Positions 1 to 10,979 of a stretch of DNA of 12,807 nt are shown here, piece by piece. The notes under the pieces were generated by a model. That model was not told where the DNA came from and made no database searches. It saw only the letters and a list, made by a program, of their open reading frames with translations. The stretch is from UHGV virus genome UHGV-1674620; one strand, written 5' to 3'. Source of the DNA: a virus. The position numbers and the translations under genes were made by a program. Each line of letters begins with the position of its first letter. Position 1 is the stretch's first letter.

Positions 1-77
1 CTAATCGCCTGATGCTTTCTTTTTCAGCAACGGGAAAGCAACAACCACCACACCCACCAGCCGCCCATTTACCACAA

Positions 78-103
78 ATAAAAAAGCCTTCACTGCGGAA
101 GGC
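78..103 (-). terminator. Putative rho-independent terminator
   Basis: Minus strand reads GCCTTC-CGCAGT-GAAGGC followed by TTTTTT (plus 80..85 is AAAAAA); the stem overlaps the TGA stop (92..90) of the upstream small ORF. Confidence 0.4.
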
Positions 104-287
104 GTCTGTAACAACCGAACTGATAGTCTGCCAGACCCGCCATAACCAGCTGGGTCAGTATTAACTGGCAGCGTTCGCGTGAAAGGTAAGTATTCTGCGC
201 AATCTCCCCGACTGTCGCCGGTTCGGTGGCACTTAATTCATTAAACACCACTCTGGCGGTTTCTGTCATATCCTGCTGTTTTAGCAT
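90..287 (-). CDS. Hypothetical small protein, about 65 aa from the second ATG (open frame extends to 311); not hydrophobic, so not holin-like
   Basis: Track ORF 90..311. The ATG at 287 is preceded by AAGGGA about 7 nt upstream; the ATG at 311 has no Shine-Dalgarno. A terminator hairpin sits at the stop. Confidence 0.4.
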   Translation of the reverse strand: MLKQQDMTETARVVFNELSATEPATVGEIAQNTYLSRERCQLILTQLVMAGLADYQFGCYRRLPQ

Positions 288-407
288 GTCTTTTTCCCTT
301 CTGGTTAACATGACATACCAATAACTCTTGTCTAAAAAGCCAGCAAGATAAAAAGTCAGTATTCACGACCACCAGCGTGTTTACTGTACTGCACCAAGTT
401 TACAGGT

Positions 408-434
408 ACAAAAAACCCGCTCAGTGGCGGGTTT
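408..434 (-). terminator. Rho-independent terminator downstream of the accessory gene 564..1181
   Basis: Perfect 8-bp stem AAACCCGC/GCGGGTTT (416..420 and 427..431 core) with a 6-nt loop; on the minus strand it is followed by TTTTTTG (plus 410..415 is AAAAAA). Confidence 0.5.
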
Positions 435-563
435 AAGTTGTGTGGCGAAGTAACCACTCTTAACACACTAATAGCATTTTTGTTATAACACAAGTAGCTC
501 ATTCAGTATTTTTAGAATCTTGACTTTCTTAAGCACGGCGAACTCTGAATACCAAACATAAAA

Positions 564-1181
564 TCAATTATCTTCCAGGCCGGATGCTATCAACGAAAGC
601 CTCTCAAAAAACGCTGTAGCAGCCTTGTCCAAAGTTGAATAAGTACTGTATTCTCCGTGTTCGGGACCAACCACTACCCATGGTCGTCTTTTTGGGATTC
701 GGGACTTCTCAGAAATCACTGTTCCAGATATACCAATATCAATTGTTACACCTGTTATTATTTTCTCTTCATCTCTTTCCCTGAACTCAATTGCCATAAA
801 TGCCGTTTTTTTTCGTTTCCCGTTTTTAAAAAAATCAAATAAAGCAAAGCGATGCTCATTAAAATCAACACCCCATCGTCCTTCAGGATAAAGGGCATGA
901 AAGTTGTCATTTACGCTCTGCATCGTCTCATAAGCTTTAACTTCTAAATCTCCATAGTGCATAGATATCGCGCAGGAGTCACTGGGTAACTGTATTTTCC
1001 CAAGATTGAAAACCTTTACTGCTCCAGAACTATGGCATCTTGCCCGCAATTTATCCCCATTTATACTAATCGGAGAAATATTCCTTAATGTTCCGGGCTG
1101 GCTCCCTCCTAAGTAAACGACTGTTAAAGATTGCTTATTTTCAATTGCATCAACTAATACATGCTCTACATTTTTATCCAT
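564..1181 (-). CDS. Hypothetical accessory (moron) protein, 205 aa from MDKNVEH; N-terminal region loosely resembles a WYL-type ligand-binding domain; AT-rich
   Basis: Track ORF 564..1208. The internal ATG at 1181 has GGGAGG 5 nt upstream, whereas the ATG at 1208 is preceded by CCTCC and no Shine-Dalgarno. Visibly lower GC than flanking phage genes. Lies directly downstream of the Q-like gene and has its own terminator. Segment VVYLGGSQPGTLRNISPISINGDKLRARC...AVKVFNLGKI recalls the WYL pattern Y..R.I.P...L.A.C...F.L..I (from memory, weak). Confidence 0.55.
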   Translation of the reverse strand: MDKNVEHVLVDAIENKQSLTVVYLGGSQPGTLRNISPISINGDKLRARCHSSGAVKVFNLGKIQLPSDSCAISMHYGDLEVKAYETMQSVNDNFHALYPEGRWGVDFNEHRFALFDFFKNGKRKKTAFMAIEFRERDEEKIITGVTIDIGISGTVISEKSRIPKRRPWVVVGPEHGEYSTYSTLDKAATAFFERLSLIASGLEDN

Positions 1182-1256
1182 AATAACCTCCCAATGAACA
1201 GGTATCATCAGGAGGTTATAATAAAATATGATTATTTACTTTGATTGAATTTATTA

Positions 1257-1628
1257 CTATATGTAACAATCAATTTCTAAAGATACCCCCAACATTGCCA
1301 GACAACCGTCAATAAACCCTTCAGCTTTCTGCAGTCTGATAACAACCTGATTAAGTGATATCCCCAGTTTTACCCCCAACACCCGTAATGTAACCCCATA
1401 CACATAATACATTTCCAGTAATTCGTATTGATACGGTTCCTTTTTCTTAAGAACTGTCATCGCAGAGCTAATGATCAAGCCATCGTCATCGCTACATTGC
1501 GGGCGGGATTTTACTTTCGAAGGAATTAATCCCTTAAAACCTGCAGCAACAGATGACCATTCCACATCCTCGTGATTATTTGCCACCCATGCCCCCCAAC
1601 GTTCAAGAACCATTTGAATATCACGCAT
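1257..1628 (-). CDS. Phage late-gene antiterminator Q (Q-like, short approx. 123-aa form resembling DLP12 QuuD)
   Basis: N-terminal MRDIQMVLERWGAWVANNHEDV...AAGFKGLI...KVKSRPQC matches my memory of short Q antiterminators of E. coli defective prophages. ATG at 1628 has GGAGA 6 nt upstream; the track start at 1643 is a TTG. Position after the nin-like genes is as expected. Confidence 0.75.
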   Translation of the reverse strand: MRDIQMVLERWGAWVANNHEDVEWSSVAAGFKGLIPSKVKSRPQCSDDDGLIISSAMTVLKKKEPYQYELLEMYYVYGVTLRVLGVKLGISLNQVVIRLQKAEGFIDGCLAMLGVSLEIDCYI

Positions 1629-1645
1629 CAACTTTCTCCACAAAA

Positions 1646-2641
1646 TCAGGCCAGCACGCCTATTGCCAGCGCACGATCGATAAAACGAAATATCAGCTCC
1701 AGCTGGGAGCCATACTTCTCTTCAAATGCCACGGTATCCGCATGCAGCTCGTCGTGATGCTTTCTGCACAAAGGCAGCACGAAGAGGTCATGCGCTTTTG
1801 TACCCATTCCCCCCTGACCGTGGCCTATCAGGTGGTGGGGATCATCAGCAGGCTTTCCACAACATGCACACGGCTGCGTCTTAACCCAGCGCGTGTACTT
1901 TTCGTTAACCCAGCGGCGACGTTTTGGGCGTAACATAAAAGACTCCGGCGACTCCGGATCCACTTTCAGCGCCAGCACCTTTTTCGCTTTATTCTGGATG
2001 ATGCTGGTGGCCGGAACCGAAGGCACAAGGTCACTCTCCCGGGTGACAGACGGCACAACAGGCTTCGGTAATCTCAGTGCCTTACGGGCTGCACTTTCCG
2101 GTAAGGCATCCGCCAGATCATTACGAACCAGCCACCAGCACAGTTCCGGCATTGTCACAACGTGACTGTCATCAAAACCGAGATCCCGACGCACAACAGA
2201 CAACACCCAGCGGGCACAGTTATCCGTTGCCATTGATTCCAGCCGTTCCGTGAACTGATCGCGCAGCTGGTTATCGCAGTGCCAGCACAGACGGATTGCG
2301 CCCGGCGCGTGTCGCATTGTGGTCATGTTCTCGCTGTGCCAGTCGGAATGAGGCCACTGGCAACCTTTTTCACGAAGTAACCAGCTTTCAAGACATTCCA
2401 CGCCACCAGCACGACGGATCACTGCCTCATTGCGGAACACGGCCCGAACGGCAGGATCATCCGCCAGCGGTTGTGATGCCGCCGGAACGGCACCACTGGC
2501 GAAAGATGAATAACGCTCCGGCTCAGGCTCCAGCAGGACACGCCCCTGCATAAACAGGGGCATCAGCTCTGAACCTGGCCTGAACAATACGATCCCCATA
2601 CGCGGGGCAATTTCAGGGGTCAGTAGTGCTCTCACAGTCAC
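1646..2641 (-). CDS. DUF968-type phage protein with C-terminal Cys/His (HNH or zinc-finger-like) motif
   Basis: C-terminal CACCGKPADDPHHLIGHGQGGMGTKAHDLFVLPLCRKHHDELH (C-x2-C, HH, C, HH-x3-H) as in nin-region DUF968 proteins of E. coli prophages (from memory). Start is GTG at 2641 or 2635; stop abuts the Q-like start. Confidence 0.65.
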   Translation of the reverse strand: MTVRALLTPEIAPRMGIVLFRPGSELMPLFMQGRVLLEPEPERYSSFASGAVPAASQPLADDPAVRAVFRNEAVIRRAGGVECLESWLLREKGCQWPHSDWHSENMTTMRHAPGAIRLCWHCDNQLRDQFTERLESMATDNCARWVLSVVRRDLGFDDSHVVTMPELCWWLVRNDLADALPESAARKALRLPKPVVPSVTRESDLVPSVPATSIIQNKAKKVLALKVDPESPESFMLRPKRRRWVNEKYTRWVKTQPCACCGKPADDPHHLIGHGQGGMGTKAHDLFVLPLCRKHHDELHADTVAFEEKYGSQLELIFRFIDRALAIGVLA

Positions 2642-4016: not shown

Positions 4017-4666
4017 GCCACCATCTCCCTGACCAGTTTTTCCGCCTGCTGGCGAACCTGCGCCAGAAATGCCTCACCACATGCCTCAAGTTCATCGCGC
4101 CCGATGTAGCTGATTGCCGGTCCCTTCCAGGTCTTGTCGAAAACAGCAATAGCACCAGCGAAGAAAGCACCTGTTGGCACCTGCTTTTCGTCTTTCGGGA
4201 TAAACCAGGCAGGCAGTTCAAAACCAATACGCCCGCGAATAAAAGCAATATGATCTGCATCTTCCGGCCACCACACTTCGCTGGTGGCAGCTTTGATCAG
4301 GAAAACATAGCGCCCGCCTTTATCACGCATGGCAGTGGCATGCTTCATGATGTAACGCATGCCGGTGATGTATTGCCCCTCATGCTGACTGGCGCGGCTG
4401 TACGGGGGATTGCCAAAGGCAGCACCTTTAAGCTCCGCAAGACGTTCTGACCAGTCATGCGCCAGCGCGTTGTCTTCCGCCGTGTAATACGCGGCACATT
4501 TGGCGTTATCACCGTCAGTGAACAGATCCAGAACAAACGGACCAAACAAGGTGTTAATTCCCCAGAAAATGTTATCCGGCGTGCGCCACTGATCTCCCAC
4601 TTCCTTCAGTTCATGGGCTGGTTTATTCCGCAGTTCCACCAGCGCCTGGCAATATTTATTACTCAT
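4013..4666 (-). CDS. Phage DNA N6-adenine methyltransferase (Dam-family orphan methyltransferase)
   Basis: 217 aa with the catalytic (D/N)PPY motif in GAAFGNPPYS; size and position after the replication gene are typical of lambdoid orphan MTases. ATG at 4666 is preceded by GGGGG. Confidence 0.8.
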   Translation of the reverse strand: MSNKYCQALVELRNKPAHELKEVGDQWRTPDNIFWGINTLFGPFVLDLFTDGDNAKCAAYYTAEDNALAHDWSERLAELKGAAFGNPPYSRASQHEGQYITGMRYIMKHATAMRDKGGRYVFLIKAATSEVWWPEDADHIAFIRGRIGFELPAWFIPKDEKQVPTGAFFAGAIAVFDKTWKGPAISYIGRDELEACGEAFLAQVRQQAEKLVREMVA

Positions 4667-4760: not shown

Positions 4761-5744
4761 TCACCCCCTGAATCCTGCCGGAATCTGGCTGTAGTCCACG
4801 TTGTCGTAACTGGCTTTGAAGTACGGGTCCTCGCGTCTGGCTGCAGATACCGCAGGAACTTCCCAGGATTCTTCGAAATGACGATCCGGACCAAAGAACG
4901 TCGACGCCTGCTTCACGAACTGGGTACCGGTATTTCCAGAGACACGCACCCAGGCGGCATAGCGTTTCACACCGTCGAGCATGGTTTCGGGTGTCACACC
5001 TTCCCTGATTCGGGCTTTCCAGGCTTTAAAAGCGGCGGATTTTGAATTACCACCAGCACGTTTGGGATATTCCTGCCAGACCTGTTCAAATTCCGGTGAA
5101 TATTCCTGTCGGGCAGAACGCGCTGGCGCAGACGCGTCAGCGGATGCATCAATAGTGTTTTTAGTCTCCGTTGTAATCTCTGTAGTAATCTCTGTATTTG
5201 TATCAACATTCGGCGTATCCCCTGTTCCGTTATGACGTCGGGGGGTGTTCCGTTTTAACGTAATAGCTGTATCGCTGATTGCATTATTGCTGTTACTTTC
5301 TGGCGAAACAGAAGAAGGTGTGGTGATGGCCGCAATTGCCTGTGGGTTGATCCCGACAAACAAAATATTGCTGCATTTCACCCCATCGAGCATTTCCACC
5401 GTGCGTAAATCCAGAGTAATAAACCCTGCATCGCGCAGACGCTTCAGCGCATCTGCGGTTTCCCTTTTCCCGAAACCAAACTGCTCAGCAAACGCCTGGT
5501 AGCTTCTTTGCAGTTTGTCGCCCTGAAAACGCTTGCGATATCCCAGCAACGCTCCGGTGTGCTCATCCCTGACCTCTGTCGGGCGGTACCAGTAAACGAT
5601 CTCTGAAAGCAGAGCGATAGCCGTCGCATCCGGACGCCCACTGGGTAGTCGAATATATTTCCACCAGGTCGCAGGTGTAACATTGCCGGAAATATTAATT
5701 TGACCAATAGCCATAACTTCCGGTGTGGGGGCGTAACGGCTCAT
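4761..5744 (-). CDS. Putative phage replication initiation protein (O-like organiser) with low-complexity central linker
   Basis: 327 aa; winged-helix-like N-terminal region (...KRETADALKRLRDAGFITLD), a central S/T/N/D-rich linker including TEITTEITTE, and a C-terminal ...FEQVWQEYPKR...AFKAWKARIREGV... region. Sits where O lies in lambdoid phages. ATG is preceded by AAGGAGG and overlaps the upstream stop as ATGA. Family assignment is tentative. Confidence 0.55.
   Translation of the reverse strand: MSRYAPTPEVMAIGQINISGNVTPATWWKYIRLPSGRPDATAIALLSEIVYWYRPTEVRDEHTGALLGYRKRFQGDKLQRSYQAFAEQFGFGKRETADALKRLRDAGFITLDLRTVEMLDGVKCSNILFVGINPQAIAAITTPSSVSPESNSNNAISDTAITLKRNTPRRHNGTGDTPNVDTNTEITTEITTETKNTIDASADASAPARSARQEYSPEFEQVWQEYPKRAGGNSKSAAFKAWKARIREGVTPETMLDGVKRYAAWVRVSGNTGTQFVKQASTFFGPDRHFEESWEVPAVSAARREDPYFKASYDNVDYSQIPAGFRG
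5161..5196. repeat. Tandem 12-bp direct repeats (iteron-like) inside the O-like gene; candidate replication origin
   Basis: GTAATCTCTGTA at 5173..5184 and again at 5185..5196, preceded by a degenerate copy TTAGTCTCCGTT (5161..5172). A further pair of 15-mers, TGTTCCGTT(A/T)T(G/A)ACG, lies at 5223..5237 and 5246..5260. Confidence 0.4.
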
Positions 5745-6040: not shown

Positions 6041-6261
6041 GCCACACCTCCCAGACGCTTAAACATTTTTCCGGAGCAAAAGGCTATAAGCGGCATACTG
6101 ATGCGGTAATTACGGCCCAGCGGTTCACAAATCACCTTCTGACATTCACGGTCAACCAGGCTGACACGTAGAACATGCCCTGCAGGCGTGGTGTACCACT
6201 GACCAGGACGAGGACAACGGAAAGTCTGATTGGTAAACCGTTTGAAAATATTCCGGATCAT
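6037..6261 (-). CDS. Hypothetical phage protein, 74 aa, four Cys
   Basis: Track ORF; ATG at 6261 overlaps the Rha-ORF stop (ATGA) and is preceded by a G-rich Shine-Dalgarno; its stop overlaps the next gene's GTG. Confidence 0.4.
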   Translation of the reverse strand: MIRNIFKRFTNQTFRCPRPGQWYTTPAGHVLRVSLVDRECQKVICEPLGRNYRISMPLIAFCSGKMFKRLGGVA

Positions 6262-7406
6262 TTGCGCCCCCTTACCTCTGAAGGGTTCAGCGACAAATTT
6301 ATGAGACTGGCCAGTAGCGCCGCGTCGTTGATGCGGTCATACAGACTTACAGCCAGCGGTGATTCGGCTTTTGCCAACATGGGATAAAGCTGCTGCAGCC
6401 AGACCTGATGAATTGATGAAATGTAGGAATAGAGAACGCTGGCGTTATGTGCAACGTCGCTCAGTACAGAGGGATTTGAAAGCTGTTTCTCCATCTGGTT
6501 AAAGGCATTGATGTATGCCTCTTTGAACTGGGCAGCACGTTTACCCGTGAAACCCATAGCAAGAAACGCAAAGCCGTCGCGGGTTATTTGATAGCAAGGT
6601 AGTTTGCGGCCTGTGCAATCGGTGTAATCACTCACCGAAAAATTGCGGGAAGTGAATGATGCAGAGCATTCAAGCGTGCGGATCTTTTTCAGTACATCGT
6701 CATGACGTTTGGAGAAGAAGTTGGCAACAGCCAGGGATGAAGTAACAGCCTGACCATCAACGATGGCAATTTCAGGTTGAGTGAGGGTTGGGATCGTAGC
6801 CATGATGGCAGCCTCCGTTGACTGTGGAAAACTTCCACCACCGGAGCTGCGAAACTCACTGGTGGCAGACTGAACAGGGTTCGCAGTACCGGCGTCAACG
6901 GAGACCGGCGAGCCTTTCGGCTCCCCTGCCCAGCCCACCATAATTCTGGCGTGCGTGAGCGCGGACGATAAAAAAGACGCTGGCGCGTCATATATCGCCG
7001 TTGACAATTCCGGGCTGCGACCCCCGGCACCCGCTTTATAAGGTGCCTGAGCAGTGTAACGTCCCGGAATTGCAGAATCAATATGCTGGTGGTCCTTCAC
7101 ACTCAACAAAATCACGCCTGAATTTCCACAAAGGACTAAAGCACTCATGCGGGTAGTCTTTGCGAAGATAGATAACGCGCTGTGTTTCTGGCTCCCAACG
7201 AATAACATGAACATAAAGTCCTCTTCCGTCACGAAACCAGCGGTTAAGTTCCTGCACAACTCGCCCCCCACAGTCAGGTAAAGTTCTCTGTGGTTACTTA
7301 CAGCCAGGTGATTTGGTAATCTGCATTCATGCCGTAACAACAGGTGTTCAGCGACGCTGACCACCAGCTGTTGCGACAAACGGTTATTTGCCGTTAAACT
7401 ATTCAT
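6258..7406 (-). CDS. Rha-family phage regulatory protein; the Rha domain is the C-terminal 181 aa (internal start at 6803), preceded by about 200 in-frame codons of unknown function
   Basis: MATIPTLTQPEIAIVDGQAVTSSLAVANFFSKRHDDVLKKIRTLEC is the characteristic Rha N-terminal signature (TSL.VA..F.KRHD.VL..I). The ATG at 6803 has GGAGG 8 nt upstream. The frame stays open upstream to an ATG at 7406 that overlaps the cII-like stop (ATGA). Confidence 0.6.
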   Translation of the reverse strand: MNSLTANNRLSQQLVVSVAEHLLLRHECRLPNHLAVSNHRELYLTVGGELCRNLTAGFVTEEDFMFMLFVGSQKHSALSIFAKTTRMSALVLCGNSGVILLSVKDHQHIDSAIPGRYTAQAPYKAGAGGRSPELSTAIYDAPASFLSSALTHARIMVGWAGEPKGSPVSVDAGTANPVQSATSEFRSSGGGSFPQSTEAAIMATIPTLTQPEIAIVDGQAVTSSLAVANFFSKRHDDVLKKIRTLECSASFTSRNFSVSDYTDCTGRKLPCYQITRDGFAFLAMGFTGKRAAQFKEAYINAFNQMEKQLSNPSVLSDVAHNASVLYSYISSIHQVWLQQLYPMLAKAESPLAVSLYDRINDAALLASLINLSLNPSEVRGRK

Positions 7407-7960
7407 GCGTTAGTTTCTCCACAACCAGAAGCAATCGACGCCACGACGCCCGGAGCTGCACACTCGCGGGCGTTACTATTTTCTGGAGCGCAGAAGATTT
7501 TGTAGACCAGTGCTGCATGCTCCTGGAGCTTCGAAATTGAGAGGTACAGCTCGTCGTTAATTGCTGTCTTCTCATGCGGTTCCACTACACCGTCTTCGAT
7601 TGCTGAACGAATCTGTCTGGAATAACTGCCGATCTGTTCAATGACTTCCAGCAGACGCTGGTTAATATCGGCGTTGTCCACATCCTCGACGTCAGGAAGA
7701 GACACAAAGACGCCATTTGCAGACTGCGCCACAGCGTCAGCAATGAAGTGAGTTCCACCAGCACGTTGTAAAATCATTGCCCATCCCAGCGGGAAAATCT
7801 GATCGCCATCGGCACGAAGGCGATTGAATAAAGCGTTCTCTGTTACATCCAGCCACTCAGCAGCTTCAGCGTAACCCCCCGGCAATGCCGCGATAGTTTT
7901 TCTGACAGCTTTCACGTACCACTCAGGTTGTTTTTCCACTTTCCAATGATGCTTACCCAC
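7403..7960 (-). CDS. CII-like phage regulatory protein (CP76-type), 185 aa
   Basis: Immediately downstream of cro, overlapping it by 8 nt; GTG start with AGGAGG 6 nt upstream. Weak resemblance by memory to the phage regulatory protein CII (CP76) family, which occupies this position in E. coli prophages. Confidence 0.5.
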   Translation of the reverse strand: MGKHHWKVEKQPEWYVKAVRKTIAALPGGYAEAAEWLDVTENALFNRLRADGDQIFPLGWAMILQRAGGTHFIADAVAQSANGVFVSLPDVEDVDNADINQRLLEVIEQIGSYSRQIRSAIEDGVVEPHEKTAINDELYLSISKLQEHAALVYKIFCAPENSNARECAAPGVVASIASGCGETNA

Positions 7961-8213
7961 GGCTTACCTCCTGTTCCTGTGGTTTAAACCCATTCTGGTT
8001 TTGGCTAGATTGAAAACGTGCCGGATAAAGAATCTGCATTTCGCTGATTTCACCCTTAAAAAAATTGGCCAGACGTTCTGCAAGGTCGATAGATGGAATT
8101 TGTTCCAGTCTTTCAATACGACTCAGCGTCGCTGGATTGACCTGAACGCCCGCAGCAACATGCTGCAAAGTAAATCCGTGCGCCTTACGCACATTCCGTA
8201 ATGGTGATTGCAT
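7953..8213 (-). CDS. Cro-like HTH repressor
   Basis: 86 aa with helix-turn-helix GFTLQHVAAGVQVNPATLSRIE; divergently transcribed from the cI-like gene across a 97-bp operator region; GGAGG upstream of the ATG. Confidence 0.75.
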   Translation of the reverse strand: MQSPLRNVRKAHGFTLQHVAAGVQVNPATLSRIERLEQIPSIDLAERLANFFKGEISEMQILYPARFQSSQNQNGFKPQEQEVSRG

Positions 8214-8310
8214 ATAACCTCCACATATTGCGTGATGAGCATATTATTTCACGCAAATATTTTGCGCAAGTTGATTTGCTTAACGCGCAATAAAGAAATG
8301 TAATAAACGC
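8214..8310. promoter_or_regulatory. Immunity operator/promoter region (OR-like) with divergent PR and PRM candidates
   Basis: Minus-strand PR candidate: -35 TTGCGC (plus 8264..8269), 17-bp spacer, -10 TAATAT (plus 8241..8246), then a leader with GGAGG. Plus-strand PRM candidate: -35 TTGCTT (8276..8281), 17-bp spacer, -10 TGTAAT (8299..8304), which would start transcription at or near the cI ATG (no Shine-Dalgarno upstream of cI). Dyad elements: TTGCTTAACGCGCAA (8276..8290), palindrome TTGCGCAA (8262..8269), TTGCGTGATGAGCAT (8228..8242). Confidence 0.55.
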
Positions 8311-9003
8311 ATGAACATAGGAAATCGAGTCAGACAACTTCGCCAGGCGAAGAACATGAAAATCGCCGATCTCGCTGAAGCAATAGGAGTGGATGCGGCG
8401 AATATCTCGCGCCTCGAAACAGGTAAGCAGAAACAATTCACTGAACAAGCCCTGAGTAATATTGCCAGGAGCTTAGGTGTTGATATTGCTGATCTCTTTA
8501 CCTCAGACCTCAAAAGTAATACTGTATGTAAAAACAGTATTAGTGAGGATGTTGCGCAGGTGAAGGATGTATTCCGTATTGAAATGCTGGATGTCAGTGC
8601 CAGTGCGGGAAATGGCCTTATCCAGGGCGGTGATGTCATTGATGTGATTCATGCCATTGAATACAGAACTGATAATGCTGTATCGATGTTTGGTGGACGA
8701 CCAGCAAATCACATTAAAGTTATCAACGTTCGTGGGGACAGTATGTGTCCAACCATTGAGCCAGGAGATCTCATCTTCGTTGATATCAGTATCAATCAGT
8801 TTGATGGGGATGGTATATATGTATTTGGTTTTGATGATAAAATTTACGTCAAACGACTGCAAATGATACCTGATAAACTGCTGGTAATTTCTGATAATCA
8901 GATTTACCGCGAATGGGGAATTACCAGCGAAAACGAACATCGGTTTATGGTCTTTGGAAAGGTCTTAATCAGTCAGTCACAAACCCTTAAGCGACACAAT
9001 TAA
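8311..9003 (+). CDS. CI-like prophage repressor (N-terminal XRE-type HTH, C-terminal S24 LexA-like autopeptidase domain)
   Basis: 230 aa; HTH MKIADLAEAIGVDAANISRLETGKQ; S24 motifs VRGDSMCPTIEPGDLIFVD (Ser) and IYVKRLQ (Lys), with a candidate Ala-Gly cleavage site in DVSASAGNG; divergent from cro. Confidence 0.9.
   Translation: MNIGNRVRQLRQAKNMKIADLAEAIGVDAANISRLETGKQKQFTEQALSNIARSLGVDIADLFTSDLKSNTVCKNSISEDVAQVKDVFRIEMLDVSASAGNGLIQGGDVIDVIHAIEYRTDNAVSMFGGRPANHIKVINVRGDSMCPTIEPGDLIFVDISINQFDGDGIYVFGFDDKIYVKRLQMIPDKLLVISDNQIYREWGITSENEHRFMVFGKVLISQSQTLKRHN
8520..8539. promoter_or_regulatory. Candidate LexA (SOS) box inside the cI coding sequence (linker between HTH and S24 domains)
   Basis: TACTGTATGTAAAAACAGTA: 20-mer with perfect TACTGT-N8-ACAGTA architecture (12 fixed positions matching the consensus TACTGT(AT)4ACAGTA); encodes NTVCKNS of CI. 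Confidence 0.45.
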
Positions 9004-9024
9004 CCCCCTACCTCAACATCAATT

Positions 9025-9046
9025 AGCCACCAGAAGGTGGCTTTTC
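9025..9046 (+). terminator. Putative terminator after cI
   Basis: AGCCACC-AGAA-GGTGGCT hairpin (7-bp stem) followed by TTTT, beginning 22 nt after the cI stop. Confidence 0.4.
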
Positions 9047-9059
9047 ATTACCCACCAAA

Positions 9060-9098
9060 TTGCATATCTCGCAATAAAAACACTTGCATAATGCGCAA
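9060..9098 (+). promoter_or_regulatory. OL-like operator pair, possible PL region
   Basis: Two 15-bp dyads with the same architecture as the OR element: TTGCATATCTCGCAA (9060..9074) and TTGCATAATGCGCAA (9084..9098), centres 24 bp apart. -10-like CATAAT at 9087..9092; no clean -35 at 17-bp spacing. Confidence 0.4.
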
Positions 9099-9542
9099 CT
9101 TCATTTTATCTTTCTTTCCAGACCTACAAACAAGGTACTAACAAAATTTGGTTGTAACACGGCGTATGGCACATGCGTCGTTAGCGGTCTGGGGACGTTA
9201 AAGGGGACAATCCACTCCTTGCTCGGGCAAACAAACCAGGTAGCCGGAATGTGCAAGTCAATGAGGATGCTGATAAGACGCCTAACCAGCGTGGCGATTC
9301 GGTTTGACGCCTGGGAAGAGACCAGGACGCAACGATGAGAGCATTTATGGAGCCGCGACAAAGTGTGGTGCCGTAACTGGCTAAGTGCTCTCAGCGTTGT
9401 GGTGAATGCGCAGGCTGATGCGCGAAAGACATTGCAGCTATTGCGGAAAAGAGCTGTTCGGCGGGGCAATTAAACGCCCGTGAGAGTCTGAAATAACCGC
9501 AAGCCGGAGATCAGCACCGGTCACCACAACAGCCACTGCTTT

Positions 9543-9589
9543 GGCGGTACCAGTTTGTACACTTGCTTCCGGCTGGTACCGCTCTTTTT
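9543..9589 (+). terminator. Putative intrinsic terminator at the end of the noncoding leader
   Basis: Arms GCGGTACCAG (9544..9553) and CTGGTACCGC (9573..9582), 10 bp perfect, followed by TCTTTTT (9583..9589). The 19-nt loop is long for a canonical terminator. Confidence 0.45.
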
Positions 9590-9590
9590 A

Positions 9591-9677
9591 CAAAACAGAG
9601 AAGAGCATCACCGGACGACGGGCTCATAACCCAATCCATCCGGGCGGCTGCCACCGCAGGTGTTCTTCTCTGTTTTG
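9591..9677. repeat. Perfect 14-bp inverted repeat (extendable to 17 bp with one G-U) flanking a 59-bp GC-rich spacer, upstream of the early-left operon
   Basis: CAAAACAGAGAAGA (9591..9604) and its exact reverse complement TCTTCTCTGTTTTG (9664..9677). Confidence 0.6.
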
Positions 9678-9726
9678 TGGAGAAACCAACCGACCTTGCA
9701 GGGTCGATATGATGAGGAGCAGCAAA

Positions 9727-10089
9727 ATGGCTAGCGTACGCAGTACTGATGTGCAGGTATTTATCGTAGAACTGGACGGCGGCGTATTTGAAACCAAACT
9801 CGGCGCAGTTCTCAGTGAAGTCGCTTCCGGTGTGATGAACACGAAAAACAAAGGTAAAGTCTCGGTCAATCTGGACATCGAACCGTTTGATGAGAACCGT
9901 GTGAAAATCAAACACAAACTCTCATATGTTCGCCCGACTAACCGCGGGAAAATTTCCGAAGAAGACACCACCGAAACGCCGATGTATGTCAATCGCGGTG
10001 GTCGCCTGACTATTCTGCAGGAAGACCAGGGACAATTACTGACTCTTGCCGGTGAACCTGACGGAAAACTCCGCGCAGCAGGTCATTAA
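9727..10089 (+). CDS. Hypothetical phage protein, 120 aa, first gene of the early-left operon (possibly YfdP-like)
   Basis: ATG at 9727 has GAGGAG about 9 nt upstream; the track ORF start at 9541 would run through the terminator hairpin and is rejected. The YfdP resemblance is from memory of the CPS-53 gene order and size only. Confidence 0.55.
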   Translation: MASVRSTDVQVFIVELDGGVFETKLGAVLSEVASGVMNTKNKGKVSVNLDIEPFDENRVKIKHKLSYVRPTNRGKISEEDTTETPMYVNRGGRLTILQEDQGQLLTLAGEPDGKLRAAGH

Positions 10090-10154: not shown

Positions 10155-10979
10155 ATGTCTCAGAACTTAGACGCAACCGCAATTAATCAAATCCATGCCC
10201 TTATTTCTGCTCAGGGTGTTAATGAAATTATCAGTAAGATTGGTGCCGATGCTGTGGCATTGCCTGAGAATTTCCGCATTCATGATCTGGAAAAATTTAA
10301 TTTAAATCGCTTCCGTTTCCGTGGTGCGCTTTCCACTGCCAGCATCGATGACTTTACCCGTTATTCTAAAGATCTTGCAGATGAAGGCACCCGCTGCTTT
10401 ATCGATGCCGATAATATGCGTGCCGTCAGTGTGCTTAACCTGGGTACTATTGGTGAACCAGGTCACGCAGATAACACCGCCACACTCAAACTGAAAAAGA
10501 CAGCACCGTTCTCTGCTCTGTTGTCTGTTAACGGCGAGCGTAACTCCCAGAAGTCACTGGCAGAATGGATTGAAGACTGGGCCGACTATCTTGTGGGCTT
10601 TGATGCTAATGGTGACGCTATTAAGGCAACAAAAGCGGCTGCGGCAGTCCGTAAAATCACGATTGAAGCAAACCAGACCGCTGATTTTGAAGATAATGAC
10701 TTCAGCGGCAAACGCTCTTTGATGGAGTCTGTCGAAGCGAAGACCAAAGACATTATGCCAGTGGTATTTGAATTTAAATGCGTTCCGTTTGAAGGCCTGA
10801 AAGAACGTCCGTTTAAATTACGCCTCAGCATTATCACTGGCGATCGTCCTGTACTGGTTCTGCGCATTATTCAGCTGGAAGCAGTGCAGGAAGAAATGGC
10901 TAACGAATTTCGTGATCTGCTTGTTGAGAAATTTAAAGACAGCAAAGTAGAAACCTTTATTGGTACTTTCACCGCCTGA
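10155..10979 (+). CDS. Hypothetical phage protein, 274 aa (YfdQ-like by size and context)
   Basis: Track ORF with GAGGA 6 nt upstream of the ATG; no recognisable catalytic motif (no Walker A, HNH or HD). Assignment rests on memory of the E. coli CPS-53 yfdP-yfdQ-yfdR-yfdS order and protein lengths. Confidence 0.65.

What the first reader, a model, noticed from the sequence alone, without database searches (positions are those of the whole stretch)
9004..9726. About 640 bp with no credible ORF downstream of cI where rexAB or N would be expected
By analogy to lambda (cI, rexAB, tImm, OL/PL, nutL, N), the stretch after the cI terminator should hold PL and an N-type antiterminator. It has operator-like repeats at 9060..9098, but the only ORFs are short, lack an Arg-rich motif, and start at TTG. 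The stretch is moderately GC-rich and ends in a strong hairpin plus T-tract at 9543..9589. It may therefore encode a structured RNA: a long leader, a put-like cis-acting antitermination RNA as in HK022, or an sRNA.
Basis: inference. Interest (0 to 1): 0.6.

Follow-up and report, generated by a model that had tools for sequence, protein, structure and literature searches.

The report
Phage leader made of structured RNAs
The gene-free stretch after the phage repressor gene is a string of conserved, folded non-coding RNA modules; one is a published small RNA (sRNA-17) that belongs to a very widespread, apparently undescribed phage RNA family sitting where tRNA genes sit in related phages.

Summary
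Window 9004-9726 has the cI terminator, two repressor operators with a putative PL, no credible ORF, about 54% GC, and a strong terminator at 9543-9589.

The stretch is non-coding, structured RNA on the + strand, built from portable modules. These are A (9146-9337), A2 (9330-9399), B (9396-9530), the terminator, and hairpin C (9590-9678) before yfdP.

B plus the terminator (9395-9588) is the published 193-nt sRNA-17 of an mEp460-like prophage in E. coli K1.

B belongs to a family found in phages and prophages across Proteobacteria and beyond. It has a closing stem and two hairpins with complementary, near-invariant loops (GCUGA/UCAGC). An optional arm adds 6-172 nt. Of 24 pairs, 15 show compensatory changes, and 0 of 500 shuffles reach the observed value.

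In relatives the same slot holds a real tRNA-Arg. Elements near tRNAs are always co-oriented with them.

There is no Rfam match and no similarity to HK022 put. No second copy lies in the right operon.

Most likely this is an array of stable small RNAs transcribed from PL or by cI read-through, ending at a terminator that insulates the early-left genes. The trans function is unknown, and antitermination is not excluded.

The parts
9025..9042 (+). cI (immunity-transcript) terminator hairpin AGCCACC-AGAA-GGUGGCU with a weak, interrupted U-tract
   Evidence: scan. Read-through is inferred from the poor T-tract (TTTCATT).
9060..9098 (.). Two OL-type repressor operators, TTGCATATCTCGCAA (9060-9074) and TTGCATAATGCGCAA (9084-9098)
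   Evidence: 4 matches against 0.53 expected, and one more copy at 8276-8290 between cI and cro. repeat D3.
9084..9112 (+). Putative PL promoter: -35 TTGCAT (9084-9089), 17-nt spacer, -10 TATCTT (9107-9112); start near 9119
   Evidence: Inference only. It scores 7 of 12 to consensus and was not called by the scanner. The same layout, with the operator over the -35 and a TATCTT or TAATTT -10, is seen in phiNP and ST64B.
9146..9337 (+). Module A, a structured RNA of about 190 nt. Helices are at 9188-9192/9236-9240, 9278-9281/9289-9292 (loop CUAACCA) and 9310-9314/9322-9326 (loop GAAGAGA). An invariant stretch GGUAGCCGGAAUGUGCAAG lies at 9239-9257.
   Evidence: Shared with P1 (directly after trnI), with Uetakevirus phages and with lambdoid prophages. 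On 9 sequences, 97.6% of cells pair and 6 pairs show compensatory change. 0 of 500 shuffles reach the observed covariation score, and slid controls pair 31-37%.
9330..9399 (+). Module A2, a hairpin closed by an 18-bp stem (9330-9347 with 9382-9399) that abuts module B
   Evidence: inverted repeat I5 (89% complementary). The closing stem covaries with the versions in swi2 and P1: GAGAGCA/UGCUCUC, AAGAGCA/UGCUCUU and GAGAACA/UGUUCUC. Longer versions with T-loop hairpins sit in the same place in phiNP, Kp4866-6 and EPP-1.
9396..9530 (+). Module B, a multi-way junction RNA. P1 is 9396-9404/9522-9530. P2 is 9408-9412/9419-9423, with loop GGCUGA at 9413-9418. P3 is the variable arm, 9424-9502. P4 is 9503-9507/9517-9521, with loop AGAUCAGCA at 9508-9516. 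Loops GCUGA (9414-9418) and UCAGC (9511-9515) are complementary.
   Evidence: 93 sequences, 15 of 24 pairs compensatory, 0 of 500 shuffles as high. The covariance model hit is 45.7 bits, E 3e-11, and it is the only hit in the window.
9395..9588 (+). Published sRNA-17 (193 nt), made of module B, a 12-nt linker and the terminator
   Evidence: The full-length primers and Northern probe of PMC7719688 map here on the + strand.
9543..9589 (+). Intrinsic terminator (11-bp GC-rich stem, then CUUUUU)
   Evidence: Fold. The 3' RACE end of sRNA-17 lies here. Relatives keep a hairpin plus T-tract at this place with different sequences. yfdP gave about 0.5 reads in the wild-type lysogen.
9590..9678 (+). 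Module C, a long hairpin with an outer helix of about 24 bp. It encloses the conserved core CACCGGACGACGGGCUCAUAACCCAAUCCAUCCGGGCG and is followed by the invariant GGAGAAAC (9679-9686).
   Evidence: -58.2 kcal/mol, z -4.67; the outer helix is 95.8% paired with 4 compensatory pairs, and the whole model has 0 of 500 shuffles as high, on 6 sequences. It is present in every yfdP leader examined.
9727..10089 (+). yfdP, first gene of the early-left operon (alternative in-frame starts at 9709 and 9712), followed by yfdQ (DUF2303) at 10155
   Evidence: Annotations. Context clustering.

Best explanation
The ORF-less stretch is the operator/promoter region of the early-left operon followed by a non-coding leader of about 470 nt. 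The leader is an array of independently mobile, folded RNA genes (A, A2, B) ending at an efficient intrinsic terminator. A conserved long hairpin (C) follows, ahead of yfdP.

Shown:
- The modules are RNA-level structures on the + strand.
- B plus the terminator accumulates as the stable 193-nt sRNA-17 in lysogens.
- B occupies the place that a tRNA-Arg gene occupies in related A-A2-X-terminator units.
- B belongs to a very large phage and prophage family.

Inferred:
- The array is transcribed from PL on induction. In lysogens it is transcribed by read-through of the weak cI terminator, or from an internal promoter.
- It is cut into stable small RNAs the way tRNA arrays are. The mapped 5' end of sRNA-17 lies at the base of B's closing stem.
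- The terminator keeps lysogenic transcription out of the early-left genes.
- Hairpin C is a processing or translation-control element for yfdP, possibly an RNase III substrate.
- The small RNAs act in trans on a conserved host partner. The two loops of B hardly vary while the stems covary, which points to a specific tertiary contact or ligand.

What that trans function is remains unknown.
For: Non-coding:
- No Pfam hit for any leader ORF.
- Annotators disagree, and the E. coli genome rows listed carry no annotation there. 2063 of 5426 complete E. coli genomes match the query.
- The variable arm of B has 55 different lengths with no 3-nt periodicity (30/34/40 by length mod 3).

RNA structure:
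- B: 93.4% of cells paired, 15 of 24 pairs compensatory, 0 of 500 shuffles as high, slid controls 26-50%.
- Many single-side changes are G-U, which would be mismatches on the other strand.
- A. C.

Strand and RNA product:
- All 17 B elements with a tRNA within 1 kb share its strand, and 13 have the tRNA downstream.
- 41% are followed by a terminator-like site within 200 nt, against 14-18% in controls.
- RACE and Northern data for sRNA-17 map to 9395-9588 on the + strand.

tRNA slot:
- In Uetakevirus-type units, A-A2 is followed by tRNA-Arg starting where B's P1 starts.
- Other prophages have a different insert with the same closing stem.
- P1 carries three A2+B units right after tRNA-Asn and tRNA-Thr.

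Tight terminator in lysogens:
- yfdP gave 0.49 reads in the wild type while sRNA-17 was detectable.

Distribution:
- More than 120 viral contigs and more than 120 species genomes carry the exact 21-mer.
- All 80 genome loci searched with the model have model hits.
- The commonest context is downstream of an S24 repressor and upstream of yfdP/yfdQ/yfdR.
Against: - No transcript mapping exists for A, A2 or C.
- The 5' end of sRNA-17 was interpreted by its authors as a transcription start driven by an ArcA-regulated promoter inside what is here called module A. Processing is therefore an inference.
- RNase P or RNase III involvement is untested.
- B is not recognised as a tRNA by ARAGORN or the Rfam tRNA model, so 'tRNA-like' refers to position and topology only.
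- The conserved order cassette-terminator-C-yfdP across five immunity types could equally mean a cis-regulatory role.
- How the phage passes the strong terminator during lytic growth is unexplained.
- Loop invariance is partly inflated because sequences were collected with exact matches to one or other box.
Confidence: 0.6

Rival explanations
1. Cis-acting processive antiterminator RNA, working like HK022 put. One or more leader modules (B just before the terminator, or C just after it) would bind the transcribing RNA polymerase and let it read through the 9543-9589 terminator and later ones, replacing an N protein.
For: - No N-like ORF is present.
- A strong terminator sits between PL and the first gene.
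- The order cassette-terminator-C-yfdP is kept in mEp460, SfV, ST64B, phiNP, LLS and Kp4866-6 although their repressors differ.
- B is most often found between an S24 repressor and yfdP-type early genes, and next most often ahead of lysis genes. Both places are promoter-proximal leaders.
- Near-invariant loops across phyla would fit a universal partner such as RNA polymerase.
Against: - No sequence similarity to HK022 putL or putR.
- put is about 70 nt, has two open stem-loops, and comes as a left/right pair (PMC9378689). Here there is a single copy and none in the right operon.
- B also lies beside tRNA genes in virulent T1-like phages, in tandem arrays, and in P1.
- B is interchangeable with a tRNA gene.
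- B accumulates as a terminated stable RNA while yfdP is silent.
Confidence: 0.15
2. Factor- or ligand-sensing attenuator (riboswitch-like). B would be an aptamer whose state decides whether the adjacent terminator forms.
For: - The three-way junction with kissing hairpin loops recalls purine-riboswitch architecture.
- 41% of family members have a terminator a median of about 60 nt downstream.
- Loops and junction are near-invariant.
Against: - No alternative anti-terminator pairing between B's 3' strand or linker and the terminator arm was visible by eye. This was not tested computationally.
- Many members are followed by tRNAs or by another B copy rather than a terminator.
- The junction between P2 and P4 varies from 6 to 172 nt, which does not suit a ligand pocket.
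Confidence: 0.07
3. DNA-level or decaying sequence: recombination boundary sequences, or relics of tRNA genes and mobile elements, with no RNA function.
For: The region is a mosaic, with sharp homology breakpoints at module borders. Such conserved junctions could promote module exchange.
Against: - Compensatory changes keep the helices.
- G-U wobble is tolerated on one strand only.
- Co-orientation with tRNAs is strict.
- A stable RNA is detected.
- Exact loop sequences are kept across bacterial classes.
Confidence: 0.05
4. Small protein genes: one of the short ORFs (84 aa at 9084-9338, 122 aa on the minus strand at 9101-9469, 49 aa at 9563-9712) would be the real product.
For: These ORFs have been annotated as hypothetical proteins in some phage records.
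Against: - No family match.
- They start at TTG, and the 84-aa ORF starts inside the operator, upstream of the likely transcript start.
- Homologues differ by 1-nt and other non-triplet indels.
- Insert lengths show no codon periodicity.
- The E. coli genome rows listed carry no annotated gene under the full-length matches.
Confidence: 0.03

Closest known systems
sRNA-17 of E. coli K1 RS218 (Front Microbiol 2020;11:574833, PMC7719688)
   Same: It is the same locus. The published full-length primers and Northern probe match window 9395-9588 on the + strand, in an mEp460-like prophage. It is a 193-nt RNA ending at the terminator.
   Different: The paper treats it as a lone ArcA-repressed trans-acting sRNA with its own promoter. 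It reports no structure family and no Rfam relative. It does not note the tRNA-slot position, the upstream RNA modules, or that its top 'targets' yfdP and yfdR are the adjacent downstream genes.
HK022 putL/putR antiterminator RNAs
   Same: Both lie in the leader of a lambdoid early operon that lacks N, as folded RNA upstream of early genes.
   Different: No sequence similarity. put is about 70 nt with two open stem-loops and occurs as a pair, one per early operon. Here there is a closed multi-way junction, a single copy, and many occurrences outside early leaders.
tRNA genes in phage tRNA arrays
   Same: B occupies the same slot as tRNA-Arg after A-A2 and before the terminator. It is co-oriented with and adjacent to tRNAs. 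It has a 7-9-bp closing stem, a 5-bp (or 4-bp) first hairpin, a 5-bp last hairpin stacked on the closing stem, and a loop-loop contact in the place of the D-loop/T-loop elbow.
   Different: It is not detected by ARAGORN or the Rfam tRNA model. It has no anticodon arm; that arm is absent or 6-172 nt. It has no consistent CCA end. The elbow is a 5-6-bp Watson-Crick kissing pair with its own near-invariant sequence.
phi29 pRNA, and the large phage-associated ROOL and GOLLD RNAs
   Same: All are phage-borne non-coding RNAs. pRNA is a three-way junction whose two hairpin loops are complementary and pair between molecules. ROOL and GOLLD sit in prophages, often near tRNA genes, and assemble through kissing loops (general knowledge; PMC12286853 was listed but not read).
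   Different: There is no sequence or covariance-model relation (no Rfam hit). B is much smaller (about 52-230 nt). Whether its loops pair within or between molecules is unknown. The host phages package DNA without a pRNA.
P1 c4 / isrK-type prophage regulatory RNAs
   Same: All are small structured RNAs embedded in phage immunity or early operons and processed from longer transcripts. Both c4 and isrK are present elsewhere in this window.
   Different: They are different families with different structure, and they lie in the right operon (6858-7046, minus strand). The leader modules match neither model.

Membership tests
sRNA-17 (published prophage sRNA) | Sequence identity with the RACE-defined 193-nt RNA and its Northern probe | tested here: met
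   Primers CGTTGTGGTGAATGCGCAGGCTGATGCGCGAAA (window 9395-9427) and the reverse complement of AAAAGAGCGGTACCAGCCGGAAGCAAGTGTAC (window 9557-9588). The probe is antisense to 9459-9508.
HK022-type put RNA | Sequence similarity to putL/putR | tested here: not met
   Short-word BLAST of the leader against the HK022 immunity region gave only 9-11-nt chance matches.
HK022-type put RNA | Two related copies, one downstream of PL and one downstream of PR | tested here: not met
   The repeat search found no second copy. The covariance model for B hits the window once.
HK022-type put RNA | An RNA of about 70 nt with two stem-loops that binds RNA polymerase and suppresses termination | not testable with these tools
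   The architecture differs (closed junction, or an 89-nt branched hairpin). Activity needs transcription assays.
lambda N / nut antitermination | N-type protein with an arginine-rich motif encoded just downstream of PL | tested here: not met
   No such ORF and no Pfam match.
lambda N / nut antitermination | Conserved boxA followed by a boxB hairpin | tested here: not met
   The boxA-like CGCTCTTT at 9580-9587 is the terminator arm and is not kept in relatives (CGCCCTT, CGACCTT, GCACCTT). The boxB-like hairpin at 9310-9326 (loop GAAGAGA) has no boxA before it and also occurs in P1 and in Uetakevirus phages.
tRNA | Recognised by tRNA detectors (cloverleaf with anticodon arm, canonical D and T loops) | tested here: not met
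   ARAGORN found none, even at relaxed settings except for implausible intron calls. There was no Rfam tRNA hit at E up to 10, although real tRNAs in related loci are found.
tRNA | Position in tRNA arrays, same strand | tested here: met
   17 of 17 co-oriented. Same slot as tRNA-Arg. Follows tRNA-Asn and tRNA-Thr in P1.
Any Rfam 15 family | Covariance-model match in 9004-9726 or in homologous leaders | tested here: not met
   The gathering scan of the window gave only C4 and isrK, both elsewhere. The E up to 10 scan of 8950-9800 gave only two chance hits. Eight related loci gave only tRNAs.
Terminator-ended (Hfq-type) trans-acting sRNA | Intrinsic terminator with U-tail at the 3' end and a single-stranded stretch before it | tested here: met
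   Terminator at 9543-9589 and a 12-nt linker at 9531-9542.
Terminator-ended (Hfq-type) trans-acting sRNA | Chaperone binding and base-pairing with defined targets | not testable with these tools
   The paper does not mention Hfq (0 occurrences of the term) and leaves direct targets as future work. Its strongest expression changes are cis-linked genes.

The most novel reading that the evidence does not exclude
Module B would define a new, cross-phylum class of phage RNA that stands in for a tRNA in phage tRNA arrays. Its two near-invariant complementary loops would do one of two things. Either they build a tRNA-elbow mimic that captures a universal host factor (RNase P, a tRNA-modifying or tRNA-cleaving defence enzyme, the ribosome, or RNA polymerase). 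Or they pair between molecules so that the RNA self-assembles, as in pRNA, ROOL or GOLLD. In this reading the variable arm is a cargo or specificity domain. The early-left leaders of many lambdoid prophages would then be 'RNA islands' of such cassettes (A, A2, B, B', B'', C, D), expressed in lysogens and early in infection.
Probability: 0.25. Interest if true: 0.85.

Novelty: new variant of a known kind. Interest (0 to 1): 0.62.

Why it matters
This leader or parts of it occur in about 38% of complete E. coli genomes. That includes Stx-converting, cdt and uropathogenic or K1 prophages.

- The one published RNA from this locus (sRNA-17) would need re-reading as a tRNA-slot cassette RNA, not a lone regulator.
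- The family has stems that covary and loops that are near-invariant from Enterobacterales to Beta- and Alphaproteobacteria and beyond. It is absent from Rfam, so it is a well-defined target for structure and partner hunting.
- It bears on how N-less lambdoid phages control early-left transcription.
- It suggests that some annotated phage 'genes' lie over RNA genes (P1 plp and upl, and the Ash part of Rha-type antirepressors).

Tried and rejected
- Rfam: gathering and permissive scans of the window and of eight related loci found nothing in the leader.
- tRNA and tmRNA detection: none in the window. An ARAGORN 'tmRNA' call in phage swi2 is an artefact that borrows the 3' end of tRNA-Met.
- HK022 put: no similarity.
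- boxA: the resemblance at the terminator tail is not conserved in relatives.
- Encoded CCA end after B: the recurring 'CCAA' after the closing stem is, in one subgroup, the complement of an upstream UUUGG that lengthens the stem. The idea was dropped.
- HNH-endonuclease remnant, suggested by the 25-aa ORF with CSYCGK: rejected because that part is the hypervariable arm.
- Universal A2/T-loop association: only 20 of 244 contexts have a canonical T-loop hairpin upstream.
- Right-operon partner of hairpin C: one 28-nt match at 71% and one 16-nt match lie in the right operon (7125-7152 inside the Rha/Ash ORF; 7409-7424 at that ORF's start and RBS). They were judged to be chance.
- Literature: searches for the motif sequences, for yfdP plus sRNA, and for tRNA-like phage RNAs found only the sRNA-17 paper.
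- RS218 genome record: not available in the collection.
- Derepression of yfdP and yfdR in the published deletion mutant: not used as evidence for or against antitermination. The resistance cassette or scar may drive or permit read-through.
Full report
**What the window is.** The window is an mEp460-like lambdoid phage. The finding's 723 bases are 99.4% identical to JQ182728.

On the + strand lies the repressor cI (8311-9003, HTH plus Peptidase_S24). On the minus strand lie cro (7953-8213) and a CII-type gene. So the + strand corresponds to lambda's leftward direction: cI, terminator, OL/PL, then the early-left operon. That operon starts here with yfdP (ATG 9727) and yfdQ/DUF2303 (10155).

**Observation check.**
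- The cI terminator hairpin is at 9025-9042.
- Two operators of the form TTGC-N7-GCAA lie at 9060-9074 and 9084-9098. Another lies between cI and cro at 8276-8290. That is 4 matches against 0.53 expected, with no shuffle reaching 4 (repeat D3).
- A PL promoter with its -35 inside the second operator (TTGCAT, 17 nt, TATCTT at 9107-9112) is only inferred. It was not called by the consensus scan. The same arrangement recurs in phiNP and ST64B.
- The ORFs are short, start mostly at TTG, and have no family match.
- Two phage records annotate different ORFs on opposite strands. The E. coli genome rows listed carry no annotation under the full-length matches.
- GC rises to 0.54.
- The hairpin at 9543-9583 followed by CUUUUU is a strong terminator.

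**The stretch is a mosaic.** A sensitive BLAST against phage genomes broke the region into pieces shared with unrelated phages.
- 9146-9323 matches phage P1, directly after its tRNA-Ile gene and before ban.
- 9159-9402 matches Uetakevirus phages, directly upstream of a tRNA-Arg.
- 9384-9531 matches T1-like phages, P1 and many Klebsiella, Salmonella, Erwinia and Edwardsiella phages, in stretches without genes.
- 9542-9726 matches SfV, SfIV, ST64B and others.

I call these pieces A (9146-9337), A2 (9330-9399), B (9396-9530), the terminator, and C (9590-9678).

**Module B: sequences and architecture.** The exact 21-mer GTGAATGCGCAGGCTGATGCG is present in more than 120 viral contigs and more than 120 species genomes.

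Lining up the copies shows four parts:
- a 5' box, GGUGAAU-GCGCA-GGCUGA-UGCGC;
- a region of 6 to 172 nt that is unrelated between copies;
- a 3' box, AA-GCCGG-AGAUCAGCA-CCGGC-CACC;
- flanks that pair with each other.

**Module B: covariation.** I aligned 93 distinct sequences with the variable region removed.
- The model (P1 9 bp, P2 5 bp, P4 5 bp, plus a 5-bp loop-loop pairing GCUGA/UCAGC) pairs 93.4% of cells.
- 15 of 24 pairs show changes on both sides, in 145 cells.
- No shuffle out of 500 reaches the observed values, and sliding the partners drops pairing to 26-50%.
- All three stems covary. Examples are GUGUAGG/CCUACAC and GGAAGGG/CCCUUCC in P1, GCGUA/UACGC and GUCCA/UGGAC in P2, and GCAGG/CCUGC in P4.
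- The two loops stay almost constant.
- Many single-side changes are G-U pairs, which would be mismatches on the opposite strand.
- Insert lengths take 55 values with no triplet bias.
- The shortest members lack the extra arm altogether (the shortest model hits are about 52 nt).

The core is therefore a three-way junction with two kissing hairpins.

**Module B: model searches.**
- A covariance model built from this alignment finds one copy in the window (9392-9536, 45.7 bits).
- It finds hits in all 80 genome loci searched, often in tandem. These include Beta- and Alphaproteobacteria and, in metagenome bins, Geobacteraceae, Acidobacteriota, Phycisphaerales and Coriobacteriia. Bin assignments may be contaminated. 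The spread over proteobacterial classes rests on isolate genomes.
- It also recovers, more weakly, the variant in ST64B, SfV and P1. That variant has the same closing stem and other loops, GCUCAG or GCUAAG with AGGCA or AAGCA.

**It is an RNA, and it is already partly known.** A full-text search for mEp460 led to PMC7719688. That paper mapped a 193-nt 'sRNA-17' by 5'/3' RACE and Northern blotting in an mEp460-like prophage of E. coli K1 RS218.
- Its primers and probe place the RNA at window 9395-9588 on the + strand. That is B, the linker and the terminator.
- Its 'promoter fragment' is my modules A and A2 (9146-9394).
- The authors found no Rfam relative.

Independent support for the strand:
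- Every one of the 17 B elements with a tRNA gene within 1 kb shares its strand.
- 41% are followed within 200 nt by a terminator-like site, against 14-18% for controls.

**The tRNA slot.** In Uetakevirus-type units, A and A2 are followed by a genuine tRNA-Arg(UCU). Its first base falls where B's closing stem begins, and a similar terminator follows.

In other lambdoid prophages with the same A, A2 and terminator, the slot holds a different insert closed by the same GUUGUGG/CCACAAC stem.

In P1, tRNA-Asn and tRNA-Thr are followed by three A2-hairpin-plus-B units on the same strand.

B also has tRNA-like proportions. It has a 7-9-bp closing stem, a 3-nt linker, a 5-bp first hairpin with a 6-nt loop (or 4 bp and 8 nt), and a 5-bp last hairpin stacked on the closing stem. 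A loop-loop contact sits where the D and T loops meet.

Even so, B is not a tRNA by any detector, and it has no consistent CCA end.

**Modules A, A2 and C.**

*Module A.* A aligns across the window, P1, four Uetakevirus phages and prophage variants.
- The consensus fold pairs 97.6% of cells, and six pairs show compensatory changes.
- No shuffle reaches the covariation score, and slid controls pair 31-37%.
- Three hairpins with constant loops and covarying stems stand out: 9188-9192/9236-9240, 9278-9292, and 9310-9326.

*Module A2.* A2 is a hairpin closed by an 18-bp stem (I5).
- The stem covaries with the versions in swi2 and P1.
- Its interior is replaced in other phages by a longer insert with two T-loop hairpins.

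*Module C.* C is an 89-nt hairpin (z -4.67).
- It is kept in all yfdP leaders examined: mEp460, SfV, ST64B, phiNP, LLS and Kp4866-6.
- The outer helix is 95.8% paired, with four compensatory pairs and a constant inner core.
- This rests on only six sequences.

All these phages share the layout repressor, 630-1000 bp of leader, cassette closed by GUUGUGG/CCACAAC, terminator, C, yfdP, yfdQ. The layout holds although repressors and operators differ.

**How it most likely works.**

Shown:
- The stretch is non-coding and folded on the + strand.
- Its 3' part accumulates as a terminated RNA in lysogens.
- In the wild-type lysogen, yfdP directly downstream is essentially silent (0.49 reads), so the terminator is efficient.

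Inferred:
- The array is transcribed from PL after induction. In lysogens it is transcribed by read-through of the weak cI terminator or from an internal promoter.
- It is cut into stable small RNAs as tRNA arrays are. The mapped 5' end is at the base of B's stem.
- The terminator insulates the lytic early-left genes.
- C, a long near-perfect helix next to the yfdP start region, is a processing or translation-control site.

The near-constant complementary loops argue for a specific tertiary contact, or a conserved partner for B, acting in trans. I cannot say what that partner is.

**Rivals.** A put-like cis antiterminator remains possible (0.15). There is no N gene, a strong terminator stands in front of the operon, and the cassette-terminator-C order is conserved. 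Against it:
- There is no similarity to HK022 put.
- There is no second copy in the right operon, whereas put elements come in pairs.
- B occurs beside tRNAs in virulent phages and in tandem arrays.
- B is interchangeable with a tRNA.

A riboswitch-like attenuator (0.07), DNA-level or decaying sequence (0.05) and small proteins (0.03) fit the data less well.

The published derepression of yfdP (about 96-fold) and yfdR in the sRNA-17 deletion concerns the adjacent genes. It may be a polar effect of the inserted cassette, so I do not use it either way.

**Novelty and limits.** The locus-level RNA is published. I found the family-level picture neither in Rfam 15 nor in the searchable literature. 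That picture comprises the kissing-loop junction, the tRNA slot, the cross-class distribution, and the companion modules A, A2 and C. Subscription-only papers were not searchable.

Loop invariance is partly inflated, because sequences were gathered with exact words from one or the other box. However, sequences gathered with the 3' box still keep GGCUGA while the P2 stem varies.

Function, processing enzymes and the way the phage passes the terminator are untested.

Noticed in passing
window 6858-7046 (minus strand), inside ORF 6258..7406: A C4 antisense RNA (78.8 bits) and an isrK-like RNA (58.7 bits) lie inside the 382-aa ORF annotated as Rha/antirepressor. The isrK-like RNA ends in its own terminator, GACGCGCCAGCGUC-UUUUUU. 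The Pfam Phage_ASH match of that ORF (aa 117-212) covers the same DNA as the two RNA hits. The 'Ash' part may therefore be a translation of RNA genes, or an overlap.
   Followed up: partly
L004 (phage P1 AF234173) 4571-4638, 4804-4915, 5065-5198, + strand (record 69261-69888): Three A2-hairpin plus B-type units follow tRNA-Asn and tRNA-Thr in the P1 ban operon. They lie under the annotated minus-strand genes plp and upl, which may be mis-called over an ncRNA array.
   Followed up: partly
L324 (phiNP) ~1195-1310; L325 (Kp4866-6) ~1170-1295; L127 (EPP-1) ~1385-1510: A longer version of module A2 has the same closing stem but contains two canonical T-loop hairpins (CUGGUUCGAUUCCAG and GUCCGUUCAAUUCGGAC). 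No Rfam family or tRNA detector recognises it.
   Followed up: partly
L328 (SfV) ~495-560; L323 (ST64B) ~945-1010; L324 (phiNP) ~835-900: Another conserved leader module (AACAGGCAGGACGCCCACGAAGUAGCCGCC...GGAUGAUUCG) lies directly after PL in SfV, ST64B and phiNP. It is absent from this window.
   Followed up: no
window 9310-9326: A hairpin of module A (CCUGG-GAAGAGA-CCAGG) has a loop resembling lambda nutL boxB (GAAGA). The stem covaries and the loop is constant in P1, Uetakevirus and lambdoid copies. No boxA precedes it and no N protein is present.
   Followed up: partly
window 9727-10089 and downstream; PMC7719688 Table 1: The strongest expression changes in the published sRNA-17 deletion are yfdP (0.49 to 47 reads) and yfdR (0 to 8.5). 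These are the genes immediately downstream in cis, not distant targets.
   Followed up: partly
genome loci L329, L333, L334, L337, L338, L341, L343, L351, L354, L370, L378, L379: B-type elements occur as two copies, mostly adjacent and a few tens of nt apart (hundreds of nt apart in L341), in at least 12 of 80 bacterial genome loci. In other contexts they lie just upstream of phage lysozyme and Rz genes.
   Followed up: partly
window 9709-9729: The yfdP start is ambiguous. ATG 9709, 9712 and 9727 are in frame, and different records use different starts. GAGGAG at 9714-9719 favours 9727.
   Followed up: no
window 1-2100 compared with L001: Outside the immunity and leader region, the window's ORF pattern does not line up with the mEp460 gene coordinates (for example around the Q-type late regulator). 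The window is therefore a mosaic relative of mEp460, not that phage itself.
   Followed up: no
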